Shown here: positions 6,006-20,757 of the stretch, one piece after another
How the letters are laid out: every line of letters begins with the position of its first letter
How positions within the stretch are numbered: the stretch's first letter is position 1
Assembly (NCBI RefSeq): GCF_000022265.1
Contig: NC_011979.1
Coordinates: forward strand, 2,640,001-2,672,000
Direction: 5' to 3'
Length of the DNA stretch: 32,000 nt
Origin: Geotalea daltonii FRC-32
Lineage (GTDB): Bacteria > Desulfobacterota > Desulfuromonadia > Geobacterales > Geobacteraceae
Notes under the pieces: generated by a model
Databases searched by the model: none
Told to the model about the DNA's origin: nothing
What the model saw: only the letters and a program-made list of their open reading frames with translations
Made by a program: the position numbers and the translations under genes

Positions 6006-6082
<77 letters not shown>

Positions 6083-8886: not shown

Positions 8887-9549
8887 TTACTCCAGATTAT
8901 TGGGTTCCAAATTAAAATGCCATTCCTCAAAGAAATCGCTCAAAAATTGTTCAATGACTGCATGCCTGGACCTCGCCAGCCTTTTACCTGTTTCTGTATC
9001 GAAATCGTCTTTAAGTAGCAACAGTTTCTCGTAATAATGATGAATAACAGAAGGACAATGGGCTCCTGATTCGTACGGCTTGTTTGAGAATGGCACTGTA
9101 GGGTTCCAAATGCATTCATCATACTTTCCACCATATACGAACGACCTGGCAACACCTATAGCACCCAATGCATCGATGTTATCAGCATCTCTGACTATTT
9201 GCGCCTCGAGCGAGAGCTTGGATCGCGCACCAGGAGAAAACGAGTATTGGCTTGTATATGAAATGATTTCTAATATTGTGTCATGATATTTTGGGTTAAC
9301 AGCTATCTGGCCTAAATGTTCTCTTACCGTTTTTTCAGCCTCTTTATGAGATACCTTGGTTGCTTTCAAGCCCTCAAGATGTCGATCGATATCATGTAGA
9401 TAACAAGAAGCGACTATAACCTCCAAATTCCCACCTTCATAATGCGAGATATAACGGGCGATCCTCTCAACCCGCTCTAAATGAAAAAAATCGTGAGCAG
9501 AAGACTCGCCTTGGTAAAAGTCTTTGACATAATCCTTAATATCTTTCAT
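8887..9549 (-). CDS. HD-domain metal-dependent phosphohydrolase (YedJ/YpgQ-like)
   Basis: 220-aa ORF. The HD signature is FFHLERVERIA ... SCYLHDIDR ... VRDADNIDALG. RBS GGGGGAT lies upstream. It is the last gene of the AT-rich operon. Confidence 0.75.
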   Translation of the reverse strand: MKDIKDYVKDFYQGESSAHDFFHLERVERIARYISHYEGGNLEVIVASCYLHDIDRHLEGLKATKVSHKEAEKTVREHLGQIAVNPKYHDTILEIISYTSQYSFSPGARSKLSLEAQIVRDADNIDALGAIGVARSFVYGGKYDECIWNPTVPFSNKPYESGAHCPSVIHHYYEKLLLLKDDFDTETGKRLARSRHAVIEQFLSDFFEEWHFNLEPNNLE

Positions 9550-9576
9550 TTATCCCCCAAACTAGCCGGGTGTGCA

Positions 9577-10458
9577 CTAGTTTTCAAAAACACAGCCAAC
9601 ACCGGTATGAGCCATAAACCACGCGAGATGCGATAAATAAGCACCTTCCTTGATAATGACTGAATCATTATTTCCCATGGATGAAATATGATCAAACAAT
9701 GGATTACTAATCAACTTGGTAGCACACCCTTGAGAATGCGGGCTGACCATAAATGGCTTCTCTAATCTTCCCCCTGACAAACCTTGATAGGCCAATTTGT
9801 CAATGTCTTTATACTCTAGAAAATACATCCTTCCAGCTTGAAAGCCCACTTCGTAAAGGCAATCATGGTCAGGGTCAATATTTTCGAGGACTCTTAAACT
9901 GTCCAATGACGGACATTTACTTGAGCTAGCAGGATATTCCATCCATTGAGCACCATCCCACCTAACGCAGACTGGCTGGCGGCCGAAATCTTCGCTAATT
10001 AAATCACCATTTGAATCTAATAGGAATCTATTTTTGAAAAATCCTTTCCTAAACAAGGCATCCGGCGCACCTTCCACGATCTCAAGAAGAATATGCCTGT
10101 CTTTGACAAGTATTCCTCCAGACCAATCAAACTCCAATAGTGGTTGGACTGTCATGTCATAATCATGAATTCCAAGGTCCTCTGCTTCGGCAATAAGAAT
10201 GTGAATGGTTTCTTCAATATCCTGAGTGGAGGTTAACCTTTTCAGGCAATGTGGATAAACTGAATCTGAAAAATTAGCTCTAACATACAACCATTGTGGT
10301 GCCCATTGGCTAACCAATTGGACCGCGGTGGGGACTTCAGCTTTTTTATGAAACAAAACCGTATTAGGAATCCTCAAATTGCTGCCATCCAAGGCTATAA
10401 GACTCCTGACTTTATCCGTAACTACCTCAAAATTGTTTAGCCTGAATAACCCAGTCAT
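9577..10458 (-). CDS. Small PEP-utilising-enzyme-like protein (ATP-grasp-like core plus phosphohistidine swivel-like C-terminus)
   Basis: 293-aa ORF. TVQPLLEFDWSGGILVKDRHILLEIVEGAPDALFRKG resembles the PpsA/PPDK nucleotide-binding domain. The C-terminal VIIKEGAYLSHLAWFMAHTGVGCVF resembles the mobile His-domain motif (GG-x-T-SH-aAI-ARE-GIP). The assignment is by eye only. Confidence 0.4.
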   Translation of the reverse strand: MTGLFRLNNFEVVTDKVRSLIALDGSNLRIPNTVLFHKKAEVPTAVQLVSQWAPQWLYVRANFSDSVYPHCLKRLTSTQDIEETIHILIAEAEDLGIHDYDMTVQPLLEFDWSGGILVKDRHILLEIVEGAPDALFRKGFFKNRFLLDSNGDLISEDFGRQPVCVRWDGAQWMEYPASSSKCPSLDSLRVLENIDPDHDCLYEVGFQAGRMYFLEYKDIDKLAYQGLSGGRLEKPFMVSPHSQGCATKLISNPLFDHISSMGNNDSVIIKEGAYLSHLAWFMAHTGVGCVFEN

Positions 10459-10558
10459 TTCGTACCCTATAAAAAAATGGAATTATAAGACCACTGGCGA
10501 CTTGACCCCAAACCATCAAACCTATGGTACTGTGGCTTATGTCGAGTTTCAGAATTTC

Positions 10559-10822
10559 TTATTCAGCTTCGGCTTGAGCAGAAAAAGAGGGCGTAGTTTC
10601 GTCTCTGTTTTTCCACTTAAAAAACCCATATAAAGCTTGCACTGAATACACAGTAAACAGGAATACAGAAGCATAGATTCCCTGATAATAATAGAAAAAA
10701 ACCCAAAAAACGTTTATCACCACCCATATTAAATATCCGGTTCGTCTTTTATTAATAACAAGTTGGCCACCAAGTAAACTTCCAGCCACAAGCAACCAAG
10801 TTAAAGCACCATTTGCATTCAA
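10559..10822 (-). CDS. 87-aa three-helix membrane protein, PnuC (nicotinamide riboside transporter)-like single repeat
   Basis: Three hydrophobic segments. The pattern LVINKRRTGYLIWVVINVFWVFFYYYQGIYASVFLFTVYSVQALYGFFKW resembles the PnuC/NMN-transporter family consensus, which ends in YG-x2-W. It uses a TTG start with GAGGGGGA upstream. Confidence 0.4.
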   Translation of the reverse strand: MNANGALTWLLVAGSLLGGQLVINKRRTGYLIWVVINVFWVFFYYYQGIYASVFLFTVYSVQALYGFFKWKNRDETTPSFSAQAEAE

Positions 10823-10882
10823 AACGTTCCCCCTCGTTCCACCTACCCTGAGTTATTAGATGTTCAAATAAAATGACTCAAT

Positions 10883-11788
10883 TCAACTAAAAGCTTGCAA
10901 AATAACATCTTGAGCGGACGCACCCTCTTTAGGGCAGCAACAATTCGTAGCGGAATGGAGTATTTTTACGTAACCTTCTAAGATATTAAGCCTTGAGCCG
11001 TTGTCCATGACACAATCTACCGACTTATTGTTTCTGAATTCCTCAAAACTACTGGTGTTTGCAACAAACCCCTCATTTACTAGATTTCCATTGAAATTTG
11101 AAGGAAACAAACCATTAAACTCACTAAGGGTCAAAAATTTATGATTGTCCTTATGCACATGAACGGATCGGACTTTTAAACCTTTGTTACTTAAACTTTT
11201 AATTCTTTCAATATATTCCGGTACCCCACCACATTCGTATGTATCAAGTAAGACAGAAGCACCATGCCCTACCATTAACTTTTCGTAAAGTTCTCCAACA
11301 TAACGCCTATGCCTGGAACTGAGCCAGTTATGGTAGGATAGTCTTATCTCCTCAACTTCTAGATTATTCCCAGCGGCAAGATAGGCGAGCTTTTGTTTGT
11401 AATCTGAAAGTTCGGCCTCCTCATTAACACGGAGATCTCCTACTGGCGCATGCACAATGTAGTCAGTGAATCCTAATGTGGCGCAAAAAGAAAAAAATTG
11501 CTGCAACAATTTAAAGCCAAGAGGCTTTGACCAGTCATAACTATAACCGCCAGGTTGGTGTACTCTCACCTCTGATGGTGACAGACCATAATCATGTAGG
11601 TACTCCTTGAACCTCAATATCTCACCTTGCAGCGTTTTTAAATCGTCAGTAAAAAAAGACTGGCCAGCAATTACTGGAAGTTGGGTTAATAAGGCAACCT
11701 CAATTCCAATATTCAGTCCAATTAACCCCTGAATGTAACCCCTATCAGCAAAATCGTTGACAGTTACAGTCGTATACATAATACCCAT
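10883..11788 (-). CDS. Xylose-isomerase-like TIM-barrel protein (sugar-phosphate isomerase/epimerase family)
   Basis: Track ORF 10883..11806 has a TTG start. The ATG at 11788 has GGAAGGA upstream. Family-like strand motifs are DYIVHAP, NNLEVEEI, VLLDTYECGG and VRSVHVHKDNH. Confidence 0.45.
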   Translation of the reverse strand: MGIMYTTVTVNDFADRGYIQGLIGLNIGIEVALLTQLPVIAGQSFFTDDLKTLQGEILRFKEYLHDYGLSPSEVRVHQPGGYSYDWSKPLGFKLLQQFFSFCATLGFTDYIVHAPVGDLRVNEEAELSDYKQKLAYLAAGNNLEVEEIRLSYHNWLSSRHRRYVGELYEKLMVGHGASVLLDTYECGGVPEYIERIKSLSNKGLKVRSVHVHKDNHKFLTLSEFNGLFPSNFNGNLVNEGFVANTSSFEEFRNNKSVDCVMDNGSRLNILEGYVKILHSATNCCCPKEGASAQDVILQAFS

Positions 11789-11889
11789 TGAATTAATCCT
11801 TCCCAACCCGTGCCCTTACAAAATGAATACGGAACAGGTCTTAGTCGGCCCAAAAGCTTATCCCAACGCCCTAGATTTTTACCTGCTAA

Positions 11890-13161
11890 CTAAACCTTAA
11901 GTAGGCGCAAATCGTTTTTGATAATGTATCTGAACCATGCCCCTGCAAAGGCCGAGGTTATTATCGCAATCAAGATGAGCGAAGCTGAAAAAGAGCTACT
12001 GACTATCCCCAAGTCAAGCGCTACAGTCGCCAAAACAATGAGTGGCCCACCTTTAGTACTCATCGCAATCCCTAAATTGACACTAGAAAACCAATCTACT
12101 CTCAACATCCTAGTTGCAACTAAGCACCCAGCCATCTGAAAAAAAGTCATATACAAAAGGAACCAACCAAGAAAGAGAGGATCGAAATCCCTGATAAGGT
12201 TCAGCTTTAACCCGACTATGGCGAAATAGAGTGGAACAAAGAAAGCAAGAGAAAATTCCCGGATATGCTTTTTAACATTTATAAATTCGGGCTCTTTAGC
12301 CATCCCAACTACGATACCGGCGAGGAGTGCGCCAAATACCAAGTTAACGCCTAACATACTAGCTATTGCCACAAGAAACAGGCACACCGCCATGACATAC
12401 CCAACAATTGATGACCTGGCAACTACATTCCATTTCGAACCATTCAAGAACATTATTGCTCTTGGTATGATCTTTAAGAAAACTATAAAAAACGCTATCG
12501 TGATGACTAATTTGAGGACTATTTCTGATAAATTGATGGTACGTGCAGCTACTAAATCCCCAGCAATAGCTAAAGCGATCCACACTACTAAATCATGTAT
12601 TGTTGCAGCGGCGAGAACAACATTCGCAAACGGTGTACTTACAATATTCAGTTCGATAAATATTTTAGAAATAACAGGGATAGAAGTGACCGCAGTTGCA
12701 ATTGCTATAATCAATTGCAATGCTAACAGGCTGTGTTTGTCACCGACGTAAGGCGTGAGGTCAAAACAAATCGGCAAAAACCATCCGGCAATGAATGGTA
12801 TGATTGTAGAGCCAATAGTGAGTCCAAAAACAAGTTTATTGTTTTTCTGGTTTAAATAGTTCTGTATTTCAAATCCAGAAATAAACATTAATAAAATCAA
12901 GCCAAACCAGTAGACAATGGAAATTAGCTTACCCTCTGCTACAAATGCATTAAAAACCCAATTCTGCAGATCCGGCAGAAAATGACCAAATACCGTTGGC
13001 CCTAATAAGAATCCACCAAATATTTCACCAATAACACTAGGCATCCTCAATAAAGTAAAAAAGTAGCCACAAATGTGAGCAAAGGTCAACAGCAGGAAGA
13101 TTGCCATGAAAAACCGCGTCAACTCCAGGTCTGTCAAATAGATTGTGTCAGAAACCGTCAC
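11890..13161 (-). CDS. Cation:proton antiporter, CPA2/Na_H_exchanger family, without a KTN domain
   Basis: 423 aa with about 12 predicted hydrophobic helices. The N-terminal signature LLRMPSVIGEIFGGFLLGPTVFG is typical of KefB/NapA-type antiporters. Confidence 0.75.
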   Translation of the reverse strand: MTVSDTIYLTDLELTRFFMAIFLLLTFAHICGYFFTLLRMPSVIGEIFGGFLLGPTVFGHFLPDLQNWVFNAFVAEGKLISIVYWFGLILLMFISGFEIQNYLNQKNNKLVFGLTIGSTIIPFIAGWFLPICFDLTPYVGDKHSLLALQLIIAIATAVTSIPVISKIFIELNIVSTPFANVVLAAATIHDLVVWIALAIAGDLVAARTINLSEIVLKLVITIAFFIVFLKIIPRAIMFLNGSKWNVVARSSIVGYVMAVCLFLVAIASMLGVNLVFGALLAGIVVGMAKEPEFINVKKHIREFSLAFFVPLYFAIVGLKLNLIRDFDPLFLGWFLLYMTFFQMAGCLVATRMLRVDWFSSVNLGIAMSTKGGPLIVLATVALDLGIVSSSFSASLILIAIITSAFAGAWFRYIIKNDLRLLKV

Positions 13162-13195
13162 ACCAACCCCTGCTCTGCTAAGATAACTCTAGTAA

Positions 13196-14101
13196 TCATG
13201 AATAAATTGCCCTGTTTGATACGCACTTATCCCAAAGATGATTGATTTCGTGGAAAGCCTCACGTATATGATCTGCTGTCATTTGTTTGGTATCACCAAG
13301 CGATACGTAATCTCCTTTACTGGAATACGCTAAAGTTAAATCAGGCTTTACAAATACATATGATTCATCCCTTTCTGCAGCTGTCGCATGTGATATGTGT
13401 ACATCGGGAAAATATTCTTTTAAGTTTTGCATCAGTCCTTCGAAATCATCTTGAGGGATACTCAGGCTATCTATATAACTGTAATTATCGTTATAATCAT
13501 TAAAATTGCTAAATTGATAGAATCTCCAGACATCAGGCGTATACAGCGGAAACTTCTCAAACATGATCTTGCCAAGTAATGCGACATGATCGATATTTTT
13601 TTTGGTTACAACAGTACCAAGTTTAACTTTAGCTGTTAGATCATCGTATTCTTTGTAATATCTGAGGAACTCTACTACTTGTGTAAAGTGTTGCGCACCT
13701 AATTCTCCCGTGATTATTTTATCTAACTCTGCTGATGGTGCGTCGAGAGATATACTAATCCATGACAAATATGGGGAAATTTCTTTCCATATTTGTTTTA
13801 ACAGCAGGCCATTAGTAGACAGGTACACGGCGAAACCAATTTTTTTTGCATATTGGGCAATGTCAGCAACATCTTCTCGGACCGTCGGTTCTCCGCCAGT
13901 CAAAACCACTCGCCTCAACCCTGCGATGTATAGCTTGTCTAAAACGTGCTTTATTTCAGCCAAAGAAGCCTCACTGCCCTCTTTTGGGGCATAGCACTTA
14001 TTACAGTTGAGATTACAACGATAAGTAACCATAATATCCACCGGGATTTGACTCAAATCTGTTGTTTTCACATTACCTCCCTCATTAGGCACAAAGGACA
14101 T
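13196..14101 (-). CDS. Radical SAM enzyme, viperin-like (candidate prokaryotic viperin / NTP dehydratase)
   Basis: 301 aa. The cluster motif is YRCNLNCNKCY (CX3CX2C), followed by VVLTGGEPTV, YLSTNGLLL and ISISLDAP. The distal VWRFYQF ... SIPQDDFEGLMQ ... DESYVFV lines up with animal viperin RWKVFQC ... IGDEEFERFLE ... KDSYLIL (from memory). An alternative GTG start at 14071 has the strong RBS GAGGGAGG. Confidence 0.6.
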   Translation of the reverse strand: MSFVPNEGGNVKTTDLSQIPVDIMVTYRCNLNCNKCYAPKEGSEASLAEIKHVLDKLYIAGLRRVVLTGGEPTVREDVADIAQYAKKIGFAVYLSTNGLLLKQIWKEISPYLSWISISLDAPSAELDKIITGELGAQHFTQVVEFLRYYKEYDDLTAKVKLGTVVTKKNIDHVALLGKIMFEKFPLYTPDVWRFYQFSNFNDYNDNYSYIDSLSIPQDDFEGLMQNLKEYFPDVHISHATAAERDESYVFVKPDLTLAYSSKGDYVSLGDTKQMTADHIREAFHEINHLWDKCVSNRAIYS

Positions 14102-14104
14102 CCC

Positions 14105-14935
14105 TTAATTATCAAATATGCCCAATACCTGAGCTGCACGTTGATATTTGATTTTCTTTGTAATACTAACGCCGAACCTATTACCCAACGATTGTGATAG
14201 GACCTCTATCAACTTGACCACGCGAGGGTCCTTTGCAACCTCCGGGCTTATTCGAGGGTAAATAGCCAGCTCTACTTCTGAAACAGGGCAGCTTTTACGC
14301 TTATCCTCTGGTAACCGTAGATTGGACACATGAGCTCTATCTATGCTACATCGCAATGCGTCTTTCTTATCGAGCCAGACAAAAAACGTGAACCTGTAAT
14401 CATCAAGACGTATAGAAGGAATAAGATCAGTACCACGAATACCAAGCTTTTGCTCTAAGTGTAGTCCAGGCTGATCAATGTCTTTTCGTTTTAATAAAGA
14501 CTTGACGATACTCACCGCCTCGATTGAGTCAGGTCCATTTTGTATTGTTTTTTTCTCATCACCCGCAAACACATATCTGTGGTCCCGCCTGACGCTGTGA
14601 CTATCTGATGCTTCTTTAAAGGCACAAAAAGCATGCGTTATTTTATTGCACGAAGTACGCAGCAATGCGCCAGTGTTCAATATCTTGTAATCCTCTGTAT
14701 CGTAATATATTGCGGTGTTTAACGGTGGAGTCACCCGCGCATTTTCCTTTTCAACAATTTTTGCGCCATGTACCAATCCATCAATACAATCTTTCATCTC
14801 ATCTAACCACTGGTAGTACTGTTCGTTCGTTACATTGTCCATCTCGACTTTAACCGCAAGCTGATTAAATATCACCAGCTTCCCAGGTTCGACGGTATAA
14901 ACGGCCTCTTCACTTGGCATCCTTATGCAATCCAT
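14105..14935 (-). CDS. CYTH-like (triphosphate tunnel metalloenzyme) domain protein
   Basis: Track ORF 14105..14950 has a TTG start. The ATG at 14935 has GGAGG 6 nt upstream. The strand pattern resembles CYTH: YYDTEDYKILNTGALLRTS, AFKEA, RRDHRYVF, DDYRFTFFV, SIDRAHV, VSEVELAI, and a C-terminal KIKYQRA. The N-terminal EXEXK motif is degenerate (VKVEMD). Confidence 0.45.
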   Translation of the reverse strand: MDCIRMPSEEAVYTVEPGKLVIFNQLAVKVEMDNVTNEQYYQWLDEMKDCIDGLVHGAKIVEKENARVTPPLNTAIYYDTEDYKILNTGALLRTSCNKITHAFCAFKEASDSHSVRRDHRYVFAGDEKKTIQNGPDSIEAVSIVKSLLKRKDIDQPGLHLEQKLGIRGTDLIPSIRLDDYRFTFFVWLDKKDALRCSIDRAHVSNLRLPEDKRKSCPVSEVELAIYPRISPEVAKDPRVVKLIEVLSQSLGNRFGVSITKKIKYQRAAQVLGIFDN

Positions 14936-14981
14936 GGTTAATCCTCCCAAATATAAGAAATTGATTAATCTCCTCTTTGCC

Positions 14982-15932
14982 CTAAAGGACGGGACATAGC
15001 GGATCGATGCTCGGTTGGTGCTTCAATGCGACAGCAACGCACCCTTTACCGCATCCGGGAACACCACAATTGCTGCATAAAGGGTGATTAAAAAGCTTCT
15101 CCAATTCCGTCGGAAATCCAAATACGTCTTTTACACTGTCGGAATCATATTCTGAGGTGAAGCTAGAAATCCAAGAGCACGGCGTTATCTTGCCATCGGA
15201 CAATATTCCGATAATGTTTTTGCCGGCTGGGCATTTTTGCAACTTCCCTTTTTTAGGTCTAATCAAGTCGATGTACTTTTTGTCTTGCAGTACGTCAGAA
15301 TTTACAATCTGACTTATTTCCTCCTGTGAAACTACATATTCAGAAAGTTCCGCATTATCGTCGACTTCAATTATGTCATTGAGCTTGGCACTTAAATCAT
15401 GAGTTTTTAAGAACTTAAATAATTCGGGAAGTTCATGAATATTCTTCTTCGTTACTGTGTACTGTAAGGAGATTTTTGCCTTGTAAGGCAATAACTCCAG
15501 TATGTTATTAATCACCTGGTCGAAGGCTCCAACCCTACCAGTAAACTCATCGTGTGTTTGCGCAGAAAAACCACACAATCCAATTCTTATTTTCACTGAT
15601 TCACAACACAGTAAATCTAAGAAATGTTTATCTAACAAAAGACCATTCGTATTGATTGATACTGTCATACCTTTTGCTTGAGCATAATTTACAACCTGAA
15701 ATATCCCATCGAATAGTAACGGCTCACCACCTGTTAGTATTATACGTTTAATCCCATGAACAGCCAAATCGTCGATTAGACCCTCGGCTTCCTTCAAAGT
15801 TATTTGTGCATTTTCTCGACGATGTTTGTTTAGACAGTGCTTGCAGCTTAATTGACATTTCCCTGTAATTTCCCAGTTCACCTTGATGACATCTTCATTT
15901 GGCCAGAAACAACATGCTCTTATGTATTCCAT
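14982..15932 (-). CDS. Radical SAM enzyme with C-terminal SPASM/twitch domain
   Basis: 316 aa. The cluster motif is GKCQLSCKHCLN, followed by RIILTGGEPLL and SINTNGLLL. The C-terminal auxiliary-cluster cysteines are KCPAGKNIIGILSDGKITPCSW and CSNCGVPGCGKGCVAVA ... DPLCP. RBS AGGAGA lies upstream. Confidence 0.8.
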   Translation of the reverse strand: MEYIRACCFWPNEDVIKVNWEITGKCQLSCKHCLNKHRRENAQITLKEAEGLIDDLAVHGIKRIILTGGEPLLFDGIFQVVNYAQAKGMTVSINTNGLLLDKHFLDLLCCESVKIRIGLCGFSAQTHDEFTGRVGAFDQVINNILELLPYKAKISLQYTVTKKNIHELPELFKFLKTHDLSAKLNDIIEVDDNAELSEYVVSQEEISQIVNSDVLQDKKYIDLIRPKKGKLQKCPAGKNIIGILSDGKITPCSWISSFTSEYDSDSVKDVFGFPTELEKLFNHPLCSNCGVPGCGKGCVAVALKHQPSIDPLCPVL

Positions 15933-16049
15933 TATTTTCTCCTATTGATACTTCGAAATGAAAGCTGAAGCTTATGGCTAAACCTTTTCAGCGGCTACAA
16001 CCTTACTTTCATTACGACAGCAATAAGGCTGTATCTACGCAAACCATTC

Positions 16050-16442
16050 TTAATCAGCGATGGTGTCACAACTGCCAAAACTCCAACCTTCTATAGGTTT
16101 GTAAACCATCGCTTTATCCTTGAGCAGGCCAGAATGCTTTTTTACGAACAGCTCGATTTCTTCGCGCAATGAAATAAGCTCAATATAGAGATTTAAAGAA
16201 GAGTTATGGTATTCCGACAATTTCCCTGTTTCTATCTTTCCATTAGGAATGTAGCCGCTGTGCATTAGATAAGCGTACGCACTAAAAATCCCGTCCTGCT
16301 TGGCTGCTTCAATAATATCTTCGTACAGAGACCTACCGAAAAAACGCTGTAGGTTGGTAGTCGCTTTGACTTTATCTCTTGCAGTCATATAAATACGCAA
16401 TTGTCCATATTCTTTTATGACTACACTTTCGTCATCCGACAC
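16050..16442 (-). CDS. DUF190 (PII-like fold) protein
   Basis: 130 aa with a GTG start and GGGAGG 6 nt upstream. The pattern LRIYMTARDKV ... SLYEDIIEAAKQDGIFSAYAYLMHSGY ... LNLYIELISLREEIELFVKK matches the DUF190 family layout. Confidence 0.55.
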   Translation of the reverse strand: MSDDESVVIKEYGQLRIYMTARDKVKATTNLQRFFGRSLYEDIIEAAKQDGIFSAYAYLMHSGYIPNGKIETGKLSEYHNSSLNLYIELISLREEIELFVKKHSGLLKDKAMVYKPIEGWSFGSCDTIAD

Positions 16443-16508
16443 TTACAACCTCCCATAGTCCCATGGTTTAACATTGCCTTACTACACTAGTAACAAATTC
16501 ACCTTTAC

Positions 16509-17057
16509 CTAAACAGTTTCCAAAATACCATTGAGGCAATGTTCCTTTTCAATCACTGCTTCACTACAATTAACAAATTCATTGAATGCTTTGTTAAGTA
16601 ATTTTTTGTAGTTTGGGAAAATATTCAGAGCCTGTATCTCTGCTTTGCTAAACCATCCTATATTTTTATACTCTCGGTAATCATGCCGGATTTGATCAGT
16701 ATTTGAACTGCATATAAAAACAAAATCTATGTGATAATGTAAATCATTTGGTATATTTATCAGTTCGCATAAAACAGCGTATGGGTTGTGCAGTACAACG
16801 GCTTCATTTGTTCCAAGATTTACATCACAATTACTAACAATGGTTATTTTTAAACCTGTTTCTTCCATTATTTCTCTACTAACAGCTTCGTCAGGGGATT
16901 CGTTTACCTCTATATGCCCACCTGGCCCGAGCCAGGTGCCTAATTTTTTGTGTTCTAGTAATAGCACTTTCTCATTGTGGAAAATGATTGCCGACGCAAC
17001 GAAATGCTTAATGACCGAACCTTCTCTTAAGGTTGCTACCTCACAGTCTACAGACAT
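16509..17057 (-). CDS. NUDIX hydrolase
   Basis: 182 aa with a complete Nudix box, GGHIEVNESPDEAVSREIMEETGL (GX5EX7REUXEEXGU). It is the first gene of the AT-rich operon. Confidence 0.85.
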   Translation of the reverse strand: MSVDCEVATLREGSVIKHFVASAIIFHNEKVLLLEHKKLGTWLGPGGHIEVNESPDEAVSREIMEETGLKITIVSNCDVNLGTNEAVVLHNPYAVLCELINIPNDLHYHIDFVFICSSNTDQIRHDYREYKNIGWFSKAEIQALNIFPNYKKLLNKAFNEFVNCSEAVIEKEHCLNGILETV

Positions 17058-17237
17058 TGAAAACCCCTATTCTAGCTGACTATTTAGCTTGTCAGTCTTC
17101 CCAGATGGACTGCATTGCACTCATTTGCGTCGCGTTTTTACGTTCTAACAATAAGCATCCAGACAACAGCTGAACAATCCCTACCACCTCGTTTAAACCC
17201 TGTGCGGTTTGAAATACAATTTTTGGTCATATTAATG

Positions 17238-17257
17238 AACTGTCCTAAAGGACAGGT
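17238..17257. promoter_or_regulatory. lux-box-like 20-bp palindrome (AACTGTCCTAAAGGACAGGT)
   Basis: It has the CTG-N10-CAG core and 8 of 10 symmetric half-site positions. It lies in the 482-bp divergent region between the NUDIX operon start (17057) and the luxI-like start (17540). Confidence 0.5.
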
Positions 17258-17539
17258 GCTTCGTGCTTAGCTTCTTTAAGCCGCTAAAAGAGGAGTCGTT
17301 ATTGATTATTTTTTGAACTTGCTGGCGGGTATTTACTGAAACATTTCAAAGCAGTTTGGGATTACTCGGAGTCATTAATTGACGTAACCAGTGTAAATTG
17401 AATGCAATTCCATCTTGATTTTTGGAGGAACCACATCGGTACAGACCTGATTTTGGCAAGGAATGTTGCCGCAGCTGTACTTAAAGCCAGGTGATTTTCT
17501 TTCAATTTTCTCCTCTTATGTGTTTCAAGGAGGAGTAAT

Positions 17540-18277
17540 ATGATAGCGATTAGCAAACATGTTGCAACACCCGCTGCTAATGGCCTTAAGAGTGATGTCT
17601 TTATAAGGGAGGGTGGTCTTTATGTCACAAACATTGTTGCAAAAGAAGATATATTTAAAGCACATTCATTGAGGTATAGAGTTTTTTGTGATGAATTGGG
17701 ATGGGCTCCCCAAAATTTTTGTAAGCTTGATATAGATAATTATGATGATGGGGCTGTCTTTTTTGGCGTTTTTGATGTGAATAATGATTTAAAAGCCTTT
17801 TTACGGATTGTGACCTCAGATCATCCATTCATGATAGAGAACGAGTTTCCGTTTTTGGTAAAGGCGGGATCAACTATAAGCAAACGAGACGATGTCGTTG
17901 AGGTATCAAGACTATGTGTTGATGCCGATGCAAGATCAGAGACGTTTTCTGGTAATTTCGGCGTGCATACTGCCTCTCTTCTTTTATATAAGGGTGTTTA
18001 TCATTGGTGTTTGAAGAATCGAATAAACTACCTTTATCTTGTTGTTGATTATAAGGTGTTCAGATTGCTAAATGTGAAAGGATTTCCCTGCAGATTGATA
18101 GGAGATCCAAAAGTTATGCCCGATGGTGTAGTTGCGGTTGCAGCAATGCTGAATTGGAGGGAATTTGAAGAGTTGAACCTTGTTGGAACTAAAAATTTGA
18201 AATCATGGTTCAGTCAATATCAATTACCCCCGCCGACAGTGCAATTGCCACAGCGTGAGTTCTGCTCACAGCATTAA
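17540..18277 (+). CDS. LuxI-family acyl-homoserine-lactone synthase-like protein (GNAT fold)
   Basis: 245 aa with RBS AAGGAGG upstream. Family-invariant positions are present with the expected spacing: LRYRVFCDELGW, DIDNYD, AFLRIV and VEVSRL. The related N-acyl amino acid synthase family cannot be excluded. Confidence 0.65.
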   Translation: MIAISKHVATPAANGLKSDVFIREGGLYVTNIVAKEDIFKAHSLRYRVFCDELGWAPQNFCKLDIDNYDDGAVFFGVFDVNNDLKAFLRIVTSDHPFMIENEFPFLVKAGSTISKRDDVVEVSRLCVDADARSETFSGNFGVHTASLLLYKGVYHWCLKNRINYLYLVVDYKVFRLLNVKGFPCRLIGDPKVMPDGVVAVAAMLNWREFEELNLVGTKNLKSWFSQYQLPPPTVQLPQREFCSQH

Positions 18278-18956
18278 GTTTAACCATGATATTTTCAACA
18301 TGAAATTTTACAGTTCTTACACTGATAGCGAGAATTACTGAGATATCCCAAGAACTCTTTCCCTTTTTCACCCAATTAAGCACTTCTATTTCTCTTTTTG
18401 AAAGTTCGAAATTTACTGGAGCTTTTGTTTTTGATAAATAAGTCGTAAATGCAGTATGTAAATGTGGGGTCAAATTTTCAATTATGAATTTCTCACGTGG
18501 GTGGTTTTCCAGTTTACCAGCAACTGAAAACAGGCTTCCTTCTGTCGATTTCAAGTTTCTAACTCCACAGGCAATACCATTATATAAGTTAAAATCTCTT
18601 GCCGCTGAGATGAATTCTTTAGGTGGATTCCATTTCTTGTAGGTGTCTTCCCAAAACTGTAGCTCAAAATTACTAAAGTTTTCTTTAGCAATCGGGTCGA
18701 CTTGACAAAAATTTTTTCTTTTATAAGTGATTAGCCATTCTTCTGGATAAGATATATTCATTACATCATATGTCTGTATTAGACCGTTAGTACCTATTTG
18801 GGCTATACCAAATACTGCGTTATCAATCGCTACAAGACTAGACAAACTGTCTACAATATTCTTAATACCTGTCTTATTCTTACAGGTCACACATTCGTGA
18901 ATAAGCTCTAAAAGAAAAACTGCATCACGCTTTGAAATACAATCAGTATTTTCCAT
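18210..18956 (-). CDS. LuxR-family transcription regulator with autoinducer-binding domain
   Basis: 248 aa. The N-terminal segment EEWLITYKRKNFCQVDPIAKENFSNFELQFWED reproduces the W-x3-Y-x8-DP-x13-W spacing of the AHL-receptor invariants (TraR W57, Y61, D70, P71, W85). The C-terminal HTH is LSKREIEVLNWVKKGKSSWDISVILAISVRTVKFHVENIMVKL. Confidence 0.8.
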   Translation of the reverse strand: MENTDCISKRDAVFLLELIHECVTCKNKTGIKNIVDSLSSLVAIDNAVFGIAQIGTNGLIQTYDVMNISYPEEWLITYKRKNFCQVDPIAKENFSNFELQFWEDTYKKWNPPKEFISAARDFNLYNGIACGVRNLKSTEGSLFSVAGKLENHPREKFIIENLTPHLHTAFTTYLSKTKAPVNFELSKREIEVLNWVKKGKSSWDISVILAISVRTVKFHVENIMVKLNAVSRTHAVAIALSAGVIDID

Positions 18957-19276
18957 ATTTTCTCTATCTGTGTTATGTCCAATTGTTAGCCGCCATAGCT
19001 CCTTTAACCAATCATGTACGGTATCTGGCGTCTTGAATTATAAGCTTCATCTGCTGTTTTTATTCTTGTAGTTCTTACAAATTATTTCAGCGCTTGGCGG
19101 TGCCCAAATGGATTCAATTAAAACAGCAGACCTCCTTTTTAAGGATTCCTGAGTTGCTCAGCAGTTGCTTTCCAGGAGGGCAAAATGTTTGCTTAGCCCC
19201 ATCGAGTATCCTGGAATAAGTGGCATCGTTTTCACAAGGGGACGAGGTAATTCGACATATTCCCGAAATTGAATTT

Positions 19277-19345
19277 GTGTGCCTTGTATGGCACACGGCG
19301 TAAGTCCTGTGTAAAAAAAATTACACGTGTAAAATTTCTTTACAC
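19277..19345. promoter_or_regulatory. Cluster of three palindromes (candidate operators) upstream of the luxR-like gene
   Basis: GTGTGCC-N6-GGCACAC (19277-19296), GTGTAA-A6-TTACAC (19309-19326) and GTGTAAA-N5-TTTACAC (19327-19345). The last two share a perfect 12-bp palindrome, TTACACGTGTAA (19321-19332). Confidence 0.35.
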
Positions 19346-19653
19346 CTATGTACCTTAACTCACTACATAAACTGAAACGGAATATATTTTTAGACAACCT
19401 AATAATCAAGATAATTAAAAATATTTTTATTTAATTAATGCAAGAAAGTTGGCAAAAAACGAAAACCGCCACATATCACCTAGTAGATTCTACTCGTAAG
19501 TGCATTCGAGTTAGGGGCCCCAGACTCGCGGCCAGTGTACCTGGCTAGGCATAATCGGAACACCTCTGGAGCTCCCATAGATGGTCCTTCTGATCCCTCT
19601 CCAGATGGCAGTGCTGGGGAGGGATCACAGTCCCCAGAATAGCGTTCAGCTCG

Positions 19654-19881
19654 TCAGCGTCGTCTCGGACTCCGCCAGCCGGATAACTTTCCTTTTAATT
19701 CAGAGCAGATGTCATTGGTTTTATGGGCGAATGTAGTGATATAGGAGCAACTTTCAGGCGGGACGATGTAGCTGTCGTCGTACTGCTCTAATCCAGTACT
19801 CAACATAATCATTTCAGATTCGCTAGCGTTCTCCGGCATTCCGTCTGAGTAGCCAATGATCAGCGCGCATGTGTTATTCAT
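19654..19881 (-). CDS. Hypothetical protein (75 aa from the ATG at 19881)
   Basis: Track ORF 19654..19899 has a TTG start, with an internal ATG at 19881. I recognise no motif, and the RBS is weak. It lies between the repeat cluster and the AT-rich region. Confidence 0.25.
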   Translation of the reverse strand: MNNTCALIIGYSDGMPENASESEMIMLSTGLEQYDDSYIVPPESCSYITTFAHKTNDICSELKGKLSGWRSPRRR

Positions 19882-20044
19882 ATTTATTCTTTCACCCAAC
19901 GGGCATGAAGTTGACCCGTCGTCTTTGTTTTTGGCGGGTCTAACTTTCTGGTTGGAAATTTGCCTTTTTCGCCGTTGATTTGTCTGGTTTTGCCAAATGC
20001 GTAGATCGGACCCTCGAAGGTTCCTCCACTATGCACGCTCAATA

Positions 20045-20140
20045 CGGGAGTTCAGGGGACACCAACGGGAGTTCAGGGGACACGGGAGTTCAGGGGACAC
20101 CATACTTATCTACTGGTGTCATTCGAATTAAGTATGGTGT
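20045..20140. repeat. Three direct 17-18-bp repeats followed by a 12-bp perfect inverted repeat (transposon-end, iteron or arm-site-like)
   Basis: GGGAGTTCAGGGGACAC occurs at 20046-20062, 20067-20083 and 20084-20100. ACACCATACTTA (20097-20108) pairs with TAAGTATGGTGT (20129-20140). An alternative stem is GACACCA (20096-20102) with TGGTGTC (20114-20120). Confidence 0.85.
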
Positions 20141-20741: not shown

Positions 20742-20757
20742 TGGCATATTAAGTGCT
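20742..20757 (+). promoter_or_regulatory. Sigma54 (RpoN) -24/-12 promoter-like element
   Basis: TGGCAT-ATTAA-GTGCT fits TGGCAC-N5-TTGCW with exact GG-N10-GC spacing. It lies about 180 nt upstream of the first CoA-transferase gene. Confidence 0.5.

What the first reader, a model, noticed from the sequence alone, without database searches (positions are those of the whole stretch)
13196..14950. Viperin-like radical SAM gene tightly coupled to a CYTH-like triphosphate-tunnel gene
Seen: the CYTH-like ORF ends at 14105 and the radical SAM ORF starts at 14101 (or at the GTG at 14071, which has a strong GAGGGAGG RBS). The two are therefore essentially coupled.

Beyond the CX3CX2C cluster, the radical SAM protein shares a series of blocks with animal viperin as I remember that sequence:
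- LTGGEP
- SxNG
- ISxD
- the distinctive hydrophobic W-R/K-x-F/Y-Q block (VWRFYQF versus RWKVFQC)
- the SYxxx block

Established: CYTH enzymes bind triphosphate substrates in a beta-barrel tunnel and act as triphosphatases or cyclases.

Inference: pairing an NTP-modifying radical enzyme with a triphosphate-tunnel enzyme suggests substrate channelling, product detoxification, or cyclisation of the modified NTP. As far as I know, this combination has not been characterised for prokaryotic viperins.
Basis: partly seen in the sequence, partly recalled or inferred. Interest (0 to 1): 0.75.

Follow-up and report, generated by a model that had tools for sequence, protein, structure and literature searches.

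The report
Viperin-like enzyme beside nucleocidin-type tunnel protein
In a horizontally acquired gene island of the anaerobe Geotalea daltonii, a viperin-like radical SAM enzyme sits directly after a close relative (68% identical) of the Streptomyces protein that is genetically required to put fluorine on the antibiotic nucleocidin, which points to an oxygen-independent route to sugar-modified nucleotides and gives a new handle on an unsolved fluorination enzyme.

Summary
On the minus strand a 276-aa gene (14105-14935, Geob_2413) ends 3 nt before the ATG, or 33 nt before the annotated GTG, of a radical SAM gene (13196-14071/14101).

The radical SAM protein is viperin-like by profile. Viperin is its best NCBIfam, PADLOC and PDB match, and the match is full length. 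It scores below the curated cut-off and lacks the N-x-H motif, so it is not a certified pVip.

The upstream protein has no Pfam CYTH hit and no ExExK motif. A confident AlphaFold model nevertheless matches triphosphate tunnel metalloenzymes.

The main new point is that this protein is 68% identical to Orf2 of the Streptomyces calvus nucleocidin cluster. Published knockouts show Orf2, a histidine phosphatase (Orf3) and a cupin (Orf(-3)) to be essential for 4'-fluorination.

Of 38 non-redundant loci, 28-30 carry that trio. The three loci with a viperin-like radical SAM gene all lack the cupin and the phosphatase.

My best reading is a nucleotide-analogue biosynthetic operon in which radical SAM chemistry at ribose C4' replaces the cupin. 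Fluorination itself is unproven, and no fluoride riboswitch was found.

The parts
14105..14935 (-). Tunnel protein 'X' (Geob_2413, 276 aa). It has a triphosphate-tunnel (TTM/CYTH-like) fold and belongs to the nucleocidin Orf2 family.
   Evidence: 100% match to Geob_2413. AlphaFold2 pLDDT 94.7. Foldseek top hits are YgiF, class IV adenylate cyclases, ThTPase and VTC4. No Pfam, NCBIfam or PADLOC hit. 68% identical to the S. calvus Orf2 locus protein.
13196..14071 (-). Viperin-like radical SAM enzyme 'vipL' (Geob_2412, 291 aa from the GTG at 14071; an alternative ATG lies at 14101).
   Evidence: PF04055. NF038283 viperin_w_prok 101 bits, full length, below the cut-off of 180. PADLOC pVip 116 bits. 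Family profile A2: best PDB hit is mouse viperin 5vsl, E 5.6e-17. Only 12 related clusters among 5.8 billion proteins.
14076..14083 (-). Shine-Dalgarno sequence GAGGGAGG, 4 nt upstream of the GTG start of vipL and inside the short X-vipL spacer.
   Evidence: Read directly from the sequence. The GTG start agrees with the GenBank protein P0121.
14982..15932 (-). Second radical SAM enzyme with a SPASM-type C-terminal cysteine cluster (Geob_2414, 316 aa), 46 nt upstream of X.
   Evidence: PF04055 at 63 bits and a weak PF13186 SPASM hit. Below cut-off for all named NCBIfam families. The pattern C-x17-C ... C-x2-C-x4-C-x3-C ... C is readable in the translation.
10883..11788 (-). Metal-dependent TIM-barrel protein of the endonuclease IV / xylose-isomerase-like superfamily (Geob_2410, 301 aa). 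It is the most regular partner of vipL.
   Evidence: No Pfam hit. AlphaFold2 pLDDT 87.4. Foldseek gives Endo IV 4hno at E 6.4e-10, then ketose 3-epimerases and xylose isomerases. Invariant His, Glu and Asp residues. Found next to vipL homologues in L044/45, L050, L052 and L053, in the last two fused to an adenylate-kinase domain.
11890..13161 (-). CPA2-type Na+/H+ exchanger (Geob_2411), between vipL and the TIM-barrel gene.
   Evidence: PF00999 at 124 bits. 31-35% identical to the exchanger next to X in Streptomyces and Kitasatospora. An exchanger lies within 8 kb of X in 17 of 38 non-redundant loci.
16050..16442 (-). DUF190 (PII-like) protein (Geob_2415).
   Evidence: PF02641 at 32 bits. DUF190 also lies next to X in C. 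akagii (tandem copy, 108 bits) and in Kitasatospora/Streptomyces loci.
16509..17057 (-). NUDIX hydrolase (Geob_2416), first gene of the operon.
   Evidence: PF00293 at 53 bits. NUDIX genes accompany X in 11 of 38 non-redundant loci, including orf(-2) of the nucleocidin locus.
8887..9549 (-). HD-domain phosphohydrolase (Geob_2408), last gene of the operon.
   Evidence: PF01966. NF007515 phosphohydrolase at 96 bits, below cut-off. HD genes also flank vipL in L051 and in the P0131 locus.
9577..10458 (-). Protein of unknown function (Geob_2409, 293 aa).
   Evidence: No hit in Pfam, NCBIfam or PADLOC. No homologue in any fetched locus.
10559..10822 (-). 87-aa ORF matching only the C-terminal third of PnuC nucleoside transporters. 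It is probably a gene remnant.
   Evidence: PF04973 positions 113-175 of 175, 43 bits. TIGR01528 below cut-off.
17540..18956 (.). LuxI-type autoinducer synthase (17540-18277, +) and LuxR-type regulator (18210-18956, -), lying upstream of and divergent from the operon. They are candidate regulators.
   Evidence: PF00765; PF03472 plus PF00196.
8900..20900 (.). Low-GC genomic island (GC 0.36-0.45, against 0.48-0.64 in the flanks) that carries the whole operon.
   Evidence: Composition profile. About 3 kb to the left lie tRNA-Met at 6006-6082 and a Gp49/HTH toxin-antitoxin-like pair at 6377-7049.

Best explanation
The pair belongs to a horizontally acquired ten-gene operon (17057 to 8887, minus strand). 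I read the operon as a pathway that makes a ribose-modified nucleotide or nucleoside analogue without oxygen.

Shown:
- The upstream protein X is a triphosphate-tunnel-fold protein of the very compact Orf2 family.
- The S. calvus member of that family is genetically essential for 4'-fluorination of adenosine in nucleocidin biosynthesis.
- The downstream protein is a viperin-like radical SAM enzyme.
- Its regular partner is an endonuclease IV/xylose-isomerase-like metallo-TIM barrel.
- The viperin-like radical SAM gene occurs next to X only in loci that lack the cupin (Orf(-3)) and the histidine phosphatase (Orf3) that usually accompany X.

Inferred:
- X binds the triphosphate of an NTP, probably a purine NTP.
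- The viperin-like enzyme generates 5'-deoxyadenosyl radical and abstracts the ribose C4' hydrogen, as viperin does on CTP. It thereby takes over the C-H activation role that the iron cupin is presumed to have in aerobes.
- The C4' radical is then either dehydrated to a ddh-nucleotide or oxidised, possibly with the SPASM radical SAM enzyme as electron sink, and captured by a nucleophile.
- The TIM-barrel metalloenzyme processes the sugar or phosphate further.
- NUDIX and HD trim the phosphates.
- The Na+/H+ exchanger and DUF190 provide the ion handling seen in fluorometabolite clusters.
- LuxI/LuxR may control expression.
For: 1. Identity of X. AlphaFold pLDDT is 94.7, and the Foldseek hits are almost exclusively tunnel enzymes. 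X is 68% identical over 269 residues to the S. calvus protein.

2. That S. calvus protein is Orf2. Its gene lies between the Na+/H+ exchanger and the histidine phosphatase, downstream of the orf1 oxidoreductase. The neighbouring 218-aa protein carries Y, W, H, H, H exactly at the published Orf(-3) positions 73/100/115/117/200 once a 50-residue offset is applied. PMC10946740 reports Orf2 as TTM-fold, Orf3 as a histidine phosphatase and Orf(-3) as a cysteine-dioxygenase-like cupin, all three essential for fluorination.

3. Census of 38 non-redundant X loci. The cupin is present in 28, the histidine phosphatase in 30, the Na+/H+ exchanger in 17, NUDIX in 11 and DUF190 in 7. A viperin-like radical SAM gene is present in 3, and all 3 are among the 10 loci without the cupin (Fisher p = 0.014). 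The window has no homologue of either usual partner at E <= 1.

4. Viperin-likeness of the radical SAM enzyme. The divergent C. akagii enzyme next to X is viperin-like too.

5. Conserved order X, vipL, TIM in other lineages. One such locus also carries HisG and a SAICAR-synthetase-like gene, the hallmark of pentostatin/coformycin 'protector' pathways for adenosine analogues, plus HD, a SPASM radical SAM gene and guanylate kinase (PMC12648386).

6. The TIM barrel is fused to adenylate-kinase domains in two loci, which indicates a nucleotide substrate.

7. Hosts of the radical SAM-linked version include anaerobes: Geotalea and Clostridium akagii (physiology from general knowledge).

8. Viperin abstracts H4' of CTP (established knowledge, Gizzi et al. 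2018). O'Hagan and colleagues proposed direct C4'-H activation for nucleocidin (PMC7017864).
Against: - No biochemical activity is known for any member of the Orf2 family. Its role in fluorination may be indirect.
- The N-terminal ExExK metal-binding motif of tunnel hydrolases is missing (QLAVKIEMD; position 31 is variable), so even triphosphate hydrolysis is uncertain.
- vipL scores below the curated viperin cut-off. It has D-I-M where viperins have N-x-H.
- Half of the vipL homologues with known context (4 of 8) have no X nearby and sit instead beside kinases and NB-ARC/TPR proteins. X is therefore not obligatory for vipL.
- The complementary distribution rests on only three independent radical SAM-linked loci.
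- One further radical SAM-linked locus is in an aerobic actinomycete, and that enzyme is not viperin-specific (L033).
- No exporter is intact in the operon; the PnuC ORF is a fragment.
- SPASM enzymes more often act on peptides.
Confidence: 0.5

Rival explanations
1. Anti-phage defence of the prokaryotic viperin type. The radical SAM enzyme makes a chain-terminating ddhNTP on infection. The tunnel protein, NUDIX and HD are accessories that supply, limit or detoxify the product.
For: - PADLOC pVip models give E 4.9e-34, with near full-length coverage.
- Viperin is the top NCBIfam and PDB match.
- The operon lies on a low-GC island near a tRNA and a toxin-antitoxin-like pair.
- vipL homologues sit next to nucleotide kinases, as many pVips do, and next to NB-ARC/TPR and caspase-like proteins.
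- C. akagii has a thymidylate kinase after X.
- The NUDIX protein hits the PADLOC candidate PDC-S07.
Against: - The score is below the curated viperin threshold, and the N-x-H motif is missing.
- The PADLOC pVip model also hits the unrelated SPASM enzyme at 79 bits, so it is not specific.
- X is absent from 50,697 phage records. Elsewhere it is embedded in nucleoside-antibiotic clusters with pentostatin/coformycin genes, transporters and, in one case, an NRPS.
- A ten-gene operon with two radical SAM enzymes, an ion exchanger and a quorum-sensing pair is unlike the one- or two-gene pVip systems.
Confidence: 0.22
2. The adjacency has no shared-substrate meaning. Two separate modules, vipL plus the TIM barrel and X plus Na+/H+ exchanger, DUF190 and NUDIX, were merely brought together on a mosaic island and act on different molecules.
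For: - Each module occurs without the other. vipL with the TIM barrel and kinases but no X is seen in L050, L052 and L053.
- X occurs without radical SAM genes in 35 of 38 non-redundant loci.
Against: - The same gene order, with a short spacer, recurs in at least three further lineages whose proteins are only 47-74% identical.
- A very divergent viperin-like enzyme (28% identical) is again adjacent to X in C. akagii.
- The spacer in the window is 3-33 nt with a strong ribosome-binding site, as expected for co-translated genes.
Confidence: 0.12
3. X is an ordinary CYTH enzyme, either a class IV nucleotidyl cyclase or a tripolyphosphatase. It makes a cyclic-nucleotide signal or removes the triphosphate by-product, and the radical SAM genes mature a peptide or cofactor.
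For: - Class IV adenylate cyclases and tripolyphosphatases are among the best fold matches.
- The upstream radical SAM enzyme has a SPASM domain of the kind typical of peptide maturases.
Against: - There is no sequence similarity to any CYTH family, and the ExExK motif is lost.
- No precursor-peptide-like ORF or signalling effector is evident in the operon.
- The family's only genetic phenotype is loss of fluorination.
- Its constant partners are a cupin and a phosphatase.
Confidence: 0.06

Closest known systems
Orf2 / Orf3 / Orf(-3) fluorination genes of the nucleocidin cluster (Streptomyces calvus, S. virens; Wojnowska et al. 2023, PMC10946740)
   Same: The window's tunnel protein is 68% identical over its full length to Orf2 and shares every invariant residue of the family. 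A Na+/H+ exchanger (NucU-like) and a NUDIX gene are neighbours in both.
   Different: The window has no Orf3-type histidine phosphatase and no Orf(-3) cupin. X is flanked instead by two radical SAM genes and, one gene further on, an Endo IV-like TIM barrel. The host is an anaerobic deltaproteobacterium, not an actinomycete. There are no sulfamoylation or glucosylation genes. The biochemical function of Orf2 itself is unknown.
Viperin / prokaryotic viperins (pVips; NF038283, TIGR04278), SAM-dependent NTP 3'-dehydratases
   Same: - A CxxxCxxC radical SAM core followed by a viperin-type C-terminal extension.
- Aligned blocks GGEP, S(T/V)NG, IS(L/C)D, K(L/I)(G/N)(T/S)V, PxxW(R/K)x(Y/F)Q and SY.
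- Viperin is the best match in NCBIfam, PADLOC and the PDB.
- Relatives are often next to nucleotide kinases.
   Different: - 101 bits against a cut-off of 180.
- N-x-H before the cluster is D-I-M.
- The arginine equivalent to viperin R245 (numbering from memory) is not conserved.
- The tyrosine aligned with viperin's proposed electron/proton donor is Phe in 3 of 12 family members.
- The gene is embedded in a ten-gene operon.
- The family is very small, 12 clusters.
CYTH / triphosphate tunnel metalloenzymes (PF01928: YgiF, CyaB class IV adenylate cyclase, ThTPase, NeuTTM, VTC4)
   Same: - Predicted beta-barrel tunnel fold. Foldseek probability is 1.0, and TM-scores normalised to the smaller targets are 0.6-0.7.
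- Alternating invariant Arg, Lys, Asp and Glu on the strands, and a C-terminal E-x-E (E220, E222).
   Different: - No detectable sequence relationship.
- The N-terminal ExExK is replaced by Q-L-A-V-K-I-E-M-D, with only K29 and D33 invariant.
- X is about 90 residues longer than minimal CYTH domains, with extra helices.
Fluorinase (fl) cluster of Streptomyces cattleya
   Same: Presence of a FlH-like Na+/H+ antiporter. The acm table cites flH as the nearest named homologue of such antiporters. A DUF190 protein is also present; FlJ is DUF190 from memory. Na+/H+ antiporters are the second most common class of gene under fluoride riboswitches (PMC11139923).
   Different: There is no fluorinase (SAM hydroxide adenosyltransferase family) gene. 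No fluoride riboswitch was found in the window or in 15 related loci. No fluoride exporter was seen.
Aerobic/anaerobic enzyme pairs in which a radical SAM enzyme replaces an O2-dependent metalloenzyme (HemF/HemN, AcsF/BchE, FGE/anSME)
   Same: The distribution pattern is similar. X is paired with an iron cupin in most, mainly aerobic, hosts, and with a radical SAM enzyme in Geotalea, Clostridium and a Bacillota MAG. The two never occur together.
   Different: This is an analogy only. Neither partner's reaction is known, and there are only three independent cases.

Membership tests
Viperin / pVip (NF038283 viperin_w_prok) | Radical SAM CxxxCxxC cluster motif | tested here: met
   CNLNCNKC; PF04055 at 68.7 bits.
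Viperin / pVip (NF038283 viperin_w_prok) | Whole-protein score at or above the curated cut-off (180 bits) | tested here: not met
   101.3 bits, although it is the top-ranked family. Homologues score 77-104 bits.
Viperin / pVip (NF038283 viperin_w_prok) | Match extends through the viperin-specific C-terminal extension, not only the radical SAM core | tested here: met
   Profile positions 4-274 of 281. PADLOC 4-252 of 257. PDB viperins align to residues 216-242, whereas MoaA, SkfB and others stop near 170.
Viperin / pVip (NF038283 viperin_w_prok) | N-(hydrophobic)-H motif just before the cluster cysteines (substrate phosphate contact; the motif is recalled from memory) | tested here: not met
   Viperin 'vNyHfT' aligns to 'pvDiMvT'. 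The Asp is invariant in the vipL family.
Viperin / pVip (NF038283 viperin_w_prok) | Basic residues that hold the NTP triphosphate (equivalents of K220, R245, K247; numbering from memory) and the conserved Tyr donor | tested here: inconclusive
   K150 and R183 are invariant and align with the Lys of 'fKins' and of 'WKvfQ'. The R245 position is variable. The Tyr of 'SY' is Phe in 3 of 12 members. The role of a conserved tyrosine is cited from PMC9642334.
Viperin / pVip (NF038283 viperin_w_prok) | Converts an NTP to 3'-deoxy-3',4'-didehydro-NTP, and protects against viruses | not testable with these tools
   Needs anaerobic enzymology and phage challenge.
CYTH / triphosphate tunnel metalloenzymes (PF01928) | Significant match to the Pfam CYTH profile | tested here: not met
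   No Pfam family even at E <= 10. The family profile finds nothing in PDB sequences. No distant relatives among 1.84 billion representatives.
CYTH / triphosphate tunnel metalloenzymes (PF01928) | Closed beta-barrel tunnel fold | tested here: met
   pLDDT 94.7, pTM 0.90. Foldseek gives 5a60 YgiF at E 5.8e-10. There are 49 hits with E < 1e-3; nearly all are TTM/CYTH, the exceptions being the fold-related Mediator Med18/20 and RESC proteins.
CYTH / triphosphate tunnel metalloenzymes (PF01928) | N-terminal ExExK motif supplying the metal-binding glutamates | tested here: not met
   The first long strand reads FNQLAVKIEMD. K29 and D33 are invariant, and E31 is V, K, A or P in homologues.
CYTH / triphosphate tunnel metalloenzymes (PF01928) | Conserved charged residues lining the tunnel, including a C-terminal ExE | tested here: inconclusive
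   R93, K107, R116, D118, R120, R181, R195, D199, R200, E220 and E222 are invariant and alternate along predicted strands.
Nucleocidin Orf2 family | Full-length close similarity to S. calvus Orf2 | tested here: met
   183/269 identical, E 4e-138. The locus is identified as the nucleocidin cluster edge by gene order and by the Orf(-3) residue check.
Nucleocidin Orf2 family | Neighbouring Orf3-type histidine phosphatase and Orf(-3)-type cupin | tested here: not met
   No homologue of either anywhere in the 32-kb window at E <= 1. They are present in 30 and 28 of 38 non-redundant loci elsewhere.
Nucleocidin Orf2 family | Required for C-F bond formation | not testable with these tools
   The knockout evidence exists only for S. 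calvus and S. virens (PMC10946740).
Xylose isomerase-like TIM barrel / endonuclease IV superfamily (for Geob_2410) | TIM-barrel fold with conserved His, Glu and Asp metal ligands | tested here: met
   Foldseek 4hno at E 6.4e-10, 185 hits with E < 1e-3. H77, H113, E146, D182, E185, H210, H212, H216 and E239 are invariant. No Pfam AP_endonuc_2 hit.

The most novel reading that the evidence does not exclude
The Geotalea operon, and its relatives in Clostridium akagii and Bacillota MAGs, is an oxygen-independent counterpart of the nucleocidin fluorination system. In this reading:
- The viperin-like radical SAM enzyme abstracts H4' of a nucleoside triphosphate held by the Orf2-type tunnel protein.
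- The radical is oxidised to the C4' oxocarbenium ion, with the SPASM enzyme or an auxiliary cluster as electron acceptor.
- Fluoride, managed by the Na+/H+ exchanger and DUF190, is captured to give a 4'-fluoro-nucleotide.

This would be the first radical SAM-dependent biological fluorination. It would also reveal the chemical logic of the still unknown second natural C-F bond-forming system.
Probability: 0.13. Interest if true: 0.95.

Novelty: new variant of a known kind. Interest (0 to 1): 0.68.

Why it matters
Only one natural C-F bond-forming enzyme, the fluorinase, is understood. How nucleocidin gets its 4'-fluorine has been open for decades. The three genes shown in 2023 to be essential have no assigned chemistry.

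This window shows that the central one, the Orf2 tunnel protein, is an exceptionally conserved and widely transferred family. It also shows that in anaerobes the protein is coupled not to the iron cupin but to a viperin-like radical SAM enzyme. That enzyme class has one well-established reaction, abstraction of the ribose C4' hydrogen from a nucleoside triphosphate, and C4' is the very carbon that is fluorinated.

Two concrete hypotheses follow and can be tested: the substrate is an NTP, and the chemistry is C4'-H activation. The window also supplies small, soluble, non-actinomycete proteins to test them with.

Independently of fluorine, the finding defines a new module: a viperin-like radical SAM enzyme with an Endo IV-like TIM barrel, with or without a kinase or the tunnel protein. 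This widens what viperin-type enzymes are used for beyond ddhNTP-based immunity.

Tried and rejected
- Sequence-level assignment of X failed everywhere: Pfam at E <= 10, NCBIfam, PADLOC, phmmer and a family profile against PDB sequences, and a profile search of 1.84 billion representatives. Only the fold comparison worked.
- Fluoride riboswitch: none in the window, whether at gathering thresholds or at E <= 5 over 8500-21000. None in 15 related loci either.
- Ara-A/pentostatin (pen) cluster as the home of X: rejected. PenD-J are SAH hydrolases, a transporter and phytoene dehydrogenases, with no tunnel protein.
- Adechlorin/2'-amino-dA (ade) cluster: considered because of its antiporter and NUDIX gene. 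Chlorination there is attributed to the AdeV halogenase. I could not obtain the cluster sequence or the 2017 paper.
- NucJ, the radical SAM enzyme of the nucleocidin cluster, as a vipL relative: dropped. The knockouts assign NucJ to sulfamoylation, not fluorination.
- Literature searches for viperin + CYTH, for tunnel enzyme + nucleoside antibiotic, and for the locus tags gave nothing relevant.
- My first tblastn census was too insensitive for NUDIX and DUF190. My simple ORF caller failed on high-GC loci. I replaced both with phmmer against stop-to-stop ORFs.
- The promoter/terminator scan of the operon was at noise level for promoters and uninformative.
- Phage records hold no X, and only weak core-only radical SAM matches for vipL.
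- DNA of the P0131/P0060 contig was unavailable, so its 293-aa gene could not be compared with the TIM barrel.

Full report
**Source and layout.**
The window comes from Geotalea (Geobacter) daltonii FRC-32. The protein of the upstream ORF is 100% identical to Geob_2413, and the neighbouring proteins match ACM20761-ACM20769 exactly.

All genes of interest are on the minus strand. Short gaps link ten ORFs from 17057 down to 8887:

| Coordinates | Product |
|---|---|
| 16509-17057 | NUDIX hydrolase |
| 16050-16442 | DUF190 |
| 14982-15932 | radical SAM with a SPASM-type cysteine cluster |
| 14105-14935 | protein X, the 'CYTH-like' gene |
| 13196-14071 | the viperin-like radical SAM enzyme, here called vipL |
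| 11890-13161 | CPA2 Na+/H+ exchanger |
| 10883-11788 | TIM-barrel protein |
| 10559-10822 | PnuC C-terminal fragment |
| 9577-10458 | unknown 293-aa protein |
| 8887-9549 | HD phosphohydrolase |

These assignments rest. A LuxI/LuxR pair lies divergently upstream.

The block from about 8.9 to 20.9 kb has 36-45% GC, against 48-64% on either side. To its left lie a tRNA-Met gene and a Gp49/HTH toxin-antitoxin-like pair. It is therefore a horizontally acquired island.

**The observation.**
It is correct in every detail once the strand is taken into account.
- X stops with TAA at 14107-14105.
- The longest vipL ORF starts at the ATG at 14101, a 3-nt gap.
- The GTG at 14071 is preceded by GAGGGAGG (14083-14076). 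It is the start used in GenBank, and homologues begin to align there.
- X itself starts at the ATG at 14935, behind GGGAGGA, not at the TTG at 14950.
HMMER aligns them with the matching blocks of mouse viperin.

**Is vipL a viperin?**
Viperin is consistently the closest named family.
- NF038283 ranks first among 67 NCBIfam hits. It is the only one that covers the whole protein (positions 4-274 of 281). MoaA, NirJ, AhbD and the rest cover only the radical SAM core.
- The PADLOC pVip model scores 116 bits.
- A profile of the 12-member family finds mouse viperin as the best PDB sequence (E 5.6e-17). Seven other viperin or viperin-like structures follow, with alignments running to residue 216-242. 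Non-viperin enzymes stop near residue 170.

Against membership:
- The NF038283 score, 101 bits, is far below the curated 180.
- The N-x-H motif before the cluster is D-I-M.
- One of the triphosphate-binding basic positions is not conserved.
- The tyrosine aligned with viperin's proposed electron/proton donor is Phe in three family members.
- The PADLOC model also scores the unrelated SPASM enzyme at 79 bits, so it is not discriminating.

I therefore call vipL viperin-like, and probably an NTP-ribose radical enzyme, but not a demonstrated pVip. The family is rare. It has 11 clusters at 47-59% identity plus one at 30%, among 5.8 billion proteins.

**Is X a CYTH protein?**
By sequence it is not.
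- There is no Pfam hit even at E <= 10.
- Nothing turns up in NCBIfam or PADLOC.
- Neither the single sequence nor the family profile matches any PDB sequence.
- A profile search of 1.84 billion representatives returned 21 proteins, only two of them full length. The rest are fragments of the same family.

By fold it is.
- An AlphaFold2 model with pLDDT 94.7 matches E. coli YgiF (E 5.8e-10), class IV adenylate cyclases, thiamine triphosphatases, plant and archaeal tunnel enzymes and VTC4.
- Nearly all 49 hits below 1e-3 belong to this fold.

The alignment of 38 homologues shows invariant Arg, Lys, Asp and Glu residues alternating along the predicted strands, and a C-terminal E-x-E. The N-terminal ExExK signature is replaced by QLAVKIEMD, with a variable middle residue. 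X is thus a sequence-orphan branch of the tunnel fold. Hydrolase activity cannot be assumed.

**What X really is.**
The 334 detectable homologues are 48-74% identical across Geobacter, Streptomyces, Kitasatospora, Nocardiopsis, Myxococcus, Chloroflexia, Acidobacteria, Bacteroidota, alpha- and gammaproteobacteria and Clostridium. That degree of conservation is striking.

In Streptomyces calvus the homologue is 68% identical. It lies in this order:
- a 218-aa protein;
- NUDIX;
- a 154-aa protein;
- a GFO/IDH/MocA oxidoreductase;
- a Na+/H+ exchanger;
- X;
- a histidine phosphatase;
- a SARP regulator;
- further on, a sulfatase and an amidinotransferase.

This is the edge of the nucleocidin cluster. 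Wojnowska et al. (PMC10946740) deleted 26 genes there. Three of them, orf(-3), orf2 and orf3, proved essential for fluorination but not for sulfamoylation, glucosylation or export. They reported Orf2 as a tunnel-metalloenzyme fold, Orf3 as a histidine phosphatase and Orf(-3) as a cysteine-dioxygenase-like cupin with Tyr73, Trp100, His115, His117 and His200.

The 218-aa protein in my locus has Y23, W50, H65, H67 and H150. That is the same five residues at a constant offset of 50, which confirms the correspondence. X therefore belongs to the Orf2 family. Its only known phenotype is loss of the 4'-fluorine of nucleocidin, and its biochemistry is unknown. I found no later paper that resolves it.

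**Gene-neighbourhood census.**
I searched stop-to-stop ORFs of 51 loci carrying X with phmmer seeds taken from annotated gene tables. I then collapsed the loci to 38 clusters at 90% X identity. Within 8 kb of X the counts were:

| Neighbour | Clusters (of 38) |
|---|---|
| Histidine phosphatase | 30 |
| Cupin | 28 (more if the window is widened; in Kitasatospora it lies 9.2 kb away) |
| Na+/H+ exchanger | 17 |
| NUDIX | 11 |
| SAICAR-synthetase-like gene | 8 |
| DUF190 | 7 |
| Deoxynucleoside or thymidylate kinases | 5 |
| Viperin-like radical SAM gene | 3 |

The three radical SAM cases are the window, the Bacillota-like contigs L044/L045 and Clostridium akagii L034. All three lack both the cupin and the phosphatase. 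None of the 28 cupin-containing clusters has a viperin-like gene (Fisher p = 0.014). The window has no homologue of either usual partner at E <= 1.

A further locus known only from its gene table has this content: HisG, a SAICAR-synthetase-like gene, HD, a SPASM radical SAM gene, X (308 aa), vipL, a 293-aa protein and guanylate kinase. HisG with a SAICAR-synthetase homologue is the signature of pentostatin/coformycin-type adenosine-deaminase inhibitors. These 'protect' a co-produced adenosine analogue (PMC12648386). That argues for a purine nucleoside product made for export rather than an intracellular antiviral.

**The third partner.**
Geob_2410 has no Pfam match. Its model (pLDDT 87.4) matches endonuclease IV (E 6.4e-10), ketose 3-epimerases and xylose isomerases, and it has a full set of invariant His, Glu and Asp residues.

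Its family is as rare as vipL's, with 12 homologues. It follows vipL in L044/L045. It also accompanies vipL where X is absent, in L050, L052 and L053. In L052 and L053 it is fused to an adenylate-kinase domain.

The most stable unit is therefore vipL plus the TIM barrel, often with a nucleotide kinase. X joins it in a subset of loci. Four of eight vipL homologues with known context have X (the fourth X-linked case, P0124/P0003, rests only on matching contig lengths, not on an inspected gene table).

**Mechanism.**
Shown:
- the folds and family relations above;
- the conserved adjacency;
- the complementary distribution;
- the published genetic role of Orf2.

Established elsewhere:
- Viperin's 5'-deoxyadenosyl radical abstracts H4' of CTP.
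- Nucleocidin labelling data led its investigators to propose direct C4'-H activation and a C4' oxocarbenium ion captured by fluoride (PMC7017864).
- Na+/H+ antiporters are the second most common gene class under fluoride riboswitches (PMC11139923).

Inferred:
- In this operon X holds the triphosphate of an NTP.
- vipL activates C4'-H in place of the cupin.
- The SPASM enzyme or the TIM-barrel metalloenzyme completes the transformation.
- NUDIX and HD remove phosphates.

Whether the outcome is a ddh-nucleotide, another 4'-substituted nucleotide or a 4'-fluoro-nucleotide cannot be decided here. Several points weigh against fluorine:
- There are no fluoride riboswitches in the window or in 15 related loci.
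- No fluoride exporter was seen.
- Radical SAM fluorination has no precedent.
- The Orf2 trio is present in many bacteria, for example on Pantoea plasmids, that are not known to make fluorometabolites.

**Rivals.**
A pVip-type defence system is the main alternative. In its favour are the island context, the kinase and NB-ARC/TPR neighbours of vipL relatives, and the PADLOC hits. Against it are the biosynthetic contexts of X, the size and composition of the operon, the sub-threshold viperin score and the absence of X from phage genomes.

Mere juxtaposition of two modules is possible. It is weakened by recurrence of the pairing in lineages as divergent as 28% identity.

An ordinary CYTH cyclase or triphosphatase role has no support beyond the fold.

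**Verdict.**
- The arrangement is a new variant that combines two known kinds of system. Its main value is as a testable lead into the mechanism of 4'-fluorination, and into non-immune uses of viperin-type enzymes.

Noticed in passing
window 8900-20900: A low-GC island (0.36-0.45, against 0.48-0.64 in the flanks) carries the operon and the LuxI/LuxR pair. Between the left edge of the island and tRNA-Met (6006-6082) lie a Gp49/HigB-like plus HTH_3 pair (6377-7049) and a 276-aa protein with a weak resolvase-type HTH (7772-8602).
   Followed up: partly
window 17540-18956: A LuxI-type autoinducer synthase (+ strand) and a LuxR-type regulator (- strand) are convergent and overlap by 68 bp. They sit directly upstream of the operon, so quorum-sensing control is possible.
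   Followed up: no
window 18957-20860: About 1.9 kb with no ORF longer than 83 aa and no Rfam match, between LuxR and the first core gene (a family III CoA-transferase at 20864-22177).
   Followed up: partly
window 10559-10822: An 87-aa ORF matches only the last 60 residues of PnuC nicotinamide-riboside/nucleoside transporters. It is apparently a truncated remnant, and it is not annotated in GenBank.
   Followed up: no
L005-L049, L055 (loci with X homologues): The nucleocidin 'fluorination trio' (cupin Orf(-3), tunnel protein Orf2, histidine phosphatase Orf3) is present in 28-30 of 38 non-redundant loci across at least seven phyla. These include Pantoea and Erwiniaceae plasmids, Hahella, Erythrobacter, Chloroflexia and Acidobacteria MAGs. 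That is far beyond the handful of known nucleocidin producers. The genes are annotated as hypothetical throughout.
   Followed up: partly
protein family of window 14105-14935: The family is unusually compact. A profile search of 1.84 billion 50%-identity representatives finds only two full-length representatives and no distant relatives, yet members keep 48-74% identity between genomes of 30% and 73% GC.
   Followed up: yes
L052 11320-12960; L053 10882-12525: Homologues of the Geob_2410 TIM-barrel protein are fused to an adenylate-kinase domain (546-547 aa) next to vipL homologues. In L050 the TIM protein is followed by two separate adenylate-kinase-like genes.
   Followed up: partly
L050 1384-8798; L052 5286-8792: vipL homologues in a Chlamydiae-like MAG and another metagenome contig are flanked by large NB-ARC/TPR (STAND) proteins. 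In L050 there is also a caspase-like Peptidase_C14/TPR protein. This context is reminiscent of defence islands.
   Followed up: no
L001-L003, L005-L012 (Kitasatospora/Streptomyces): An uncharacterised nucleoside-type cluster surrounds X. It holds a coformycin-like SAICAR-synthetase homologue with an SDR, an AdoHcy-hydrolase-like protein, a HAD-GFO/IDH/MocA fusion, a Na+/H+ exchanger, a purine nucleoside phosphorylase, a histidine phosphatase, Cupin_5, NDK, DUF190 and a PEP mutase. The content partly mirrors the S. cattleya fluorinase cluster, but without a fluorinase.
   Followed up: partly
L051 9001-13352: A vipL homologue without X is followed by an HD phosphohydrolase, two further radical SAM genes and two DUF4254 genes. 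This looks like another unexplored radical SAM nucleotide-modification cassette.
   Followed up: no
H3, NZ_CP010911.1 3058-3818: The 7.6-kb plasmid of the stink-bug symbiont Candidatus Pantoea carbekii carries an X homologue split into two pieces. It is apparently a pseudogene.
   Followed up: no
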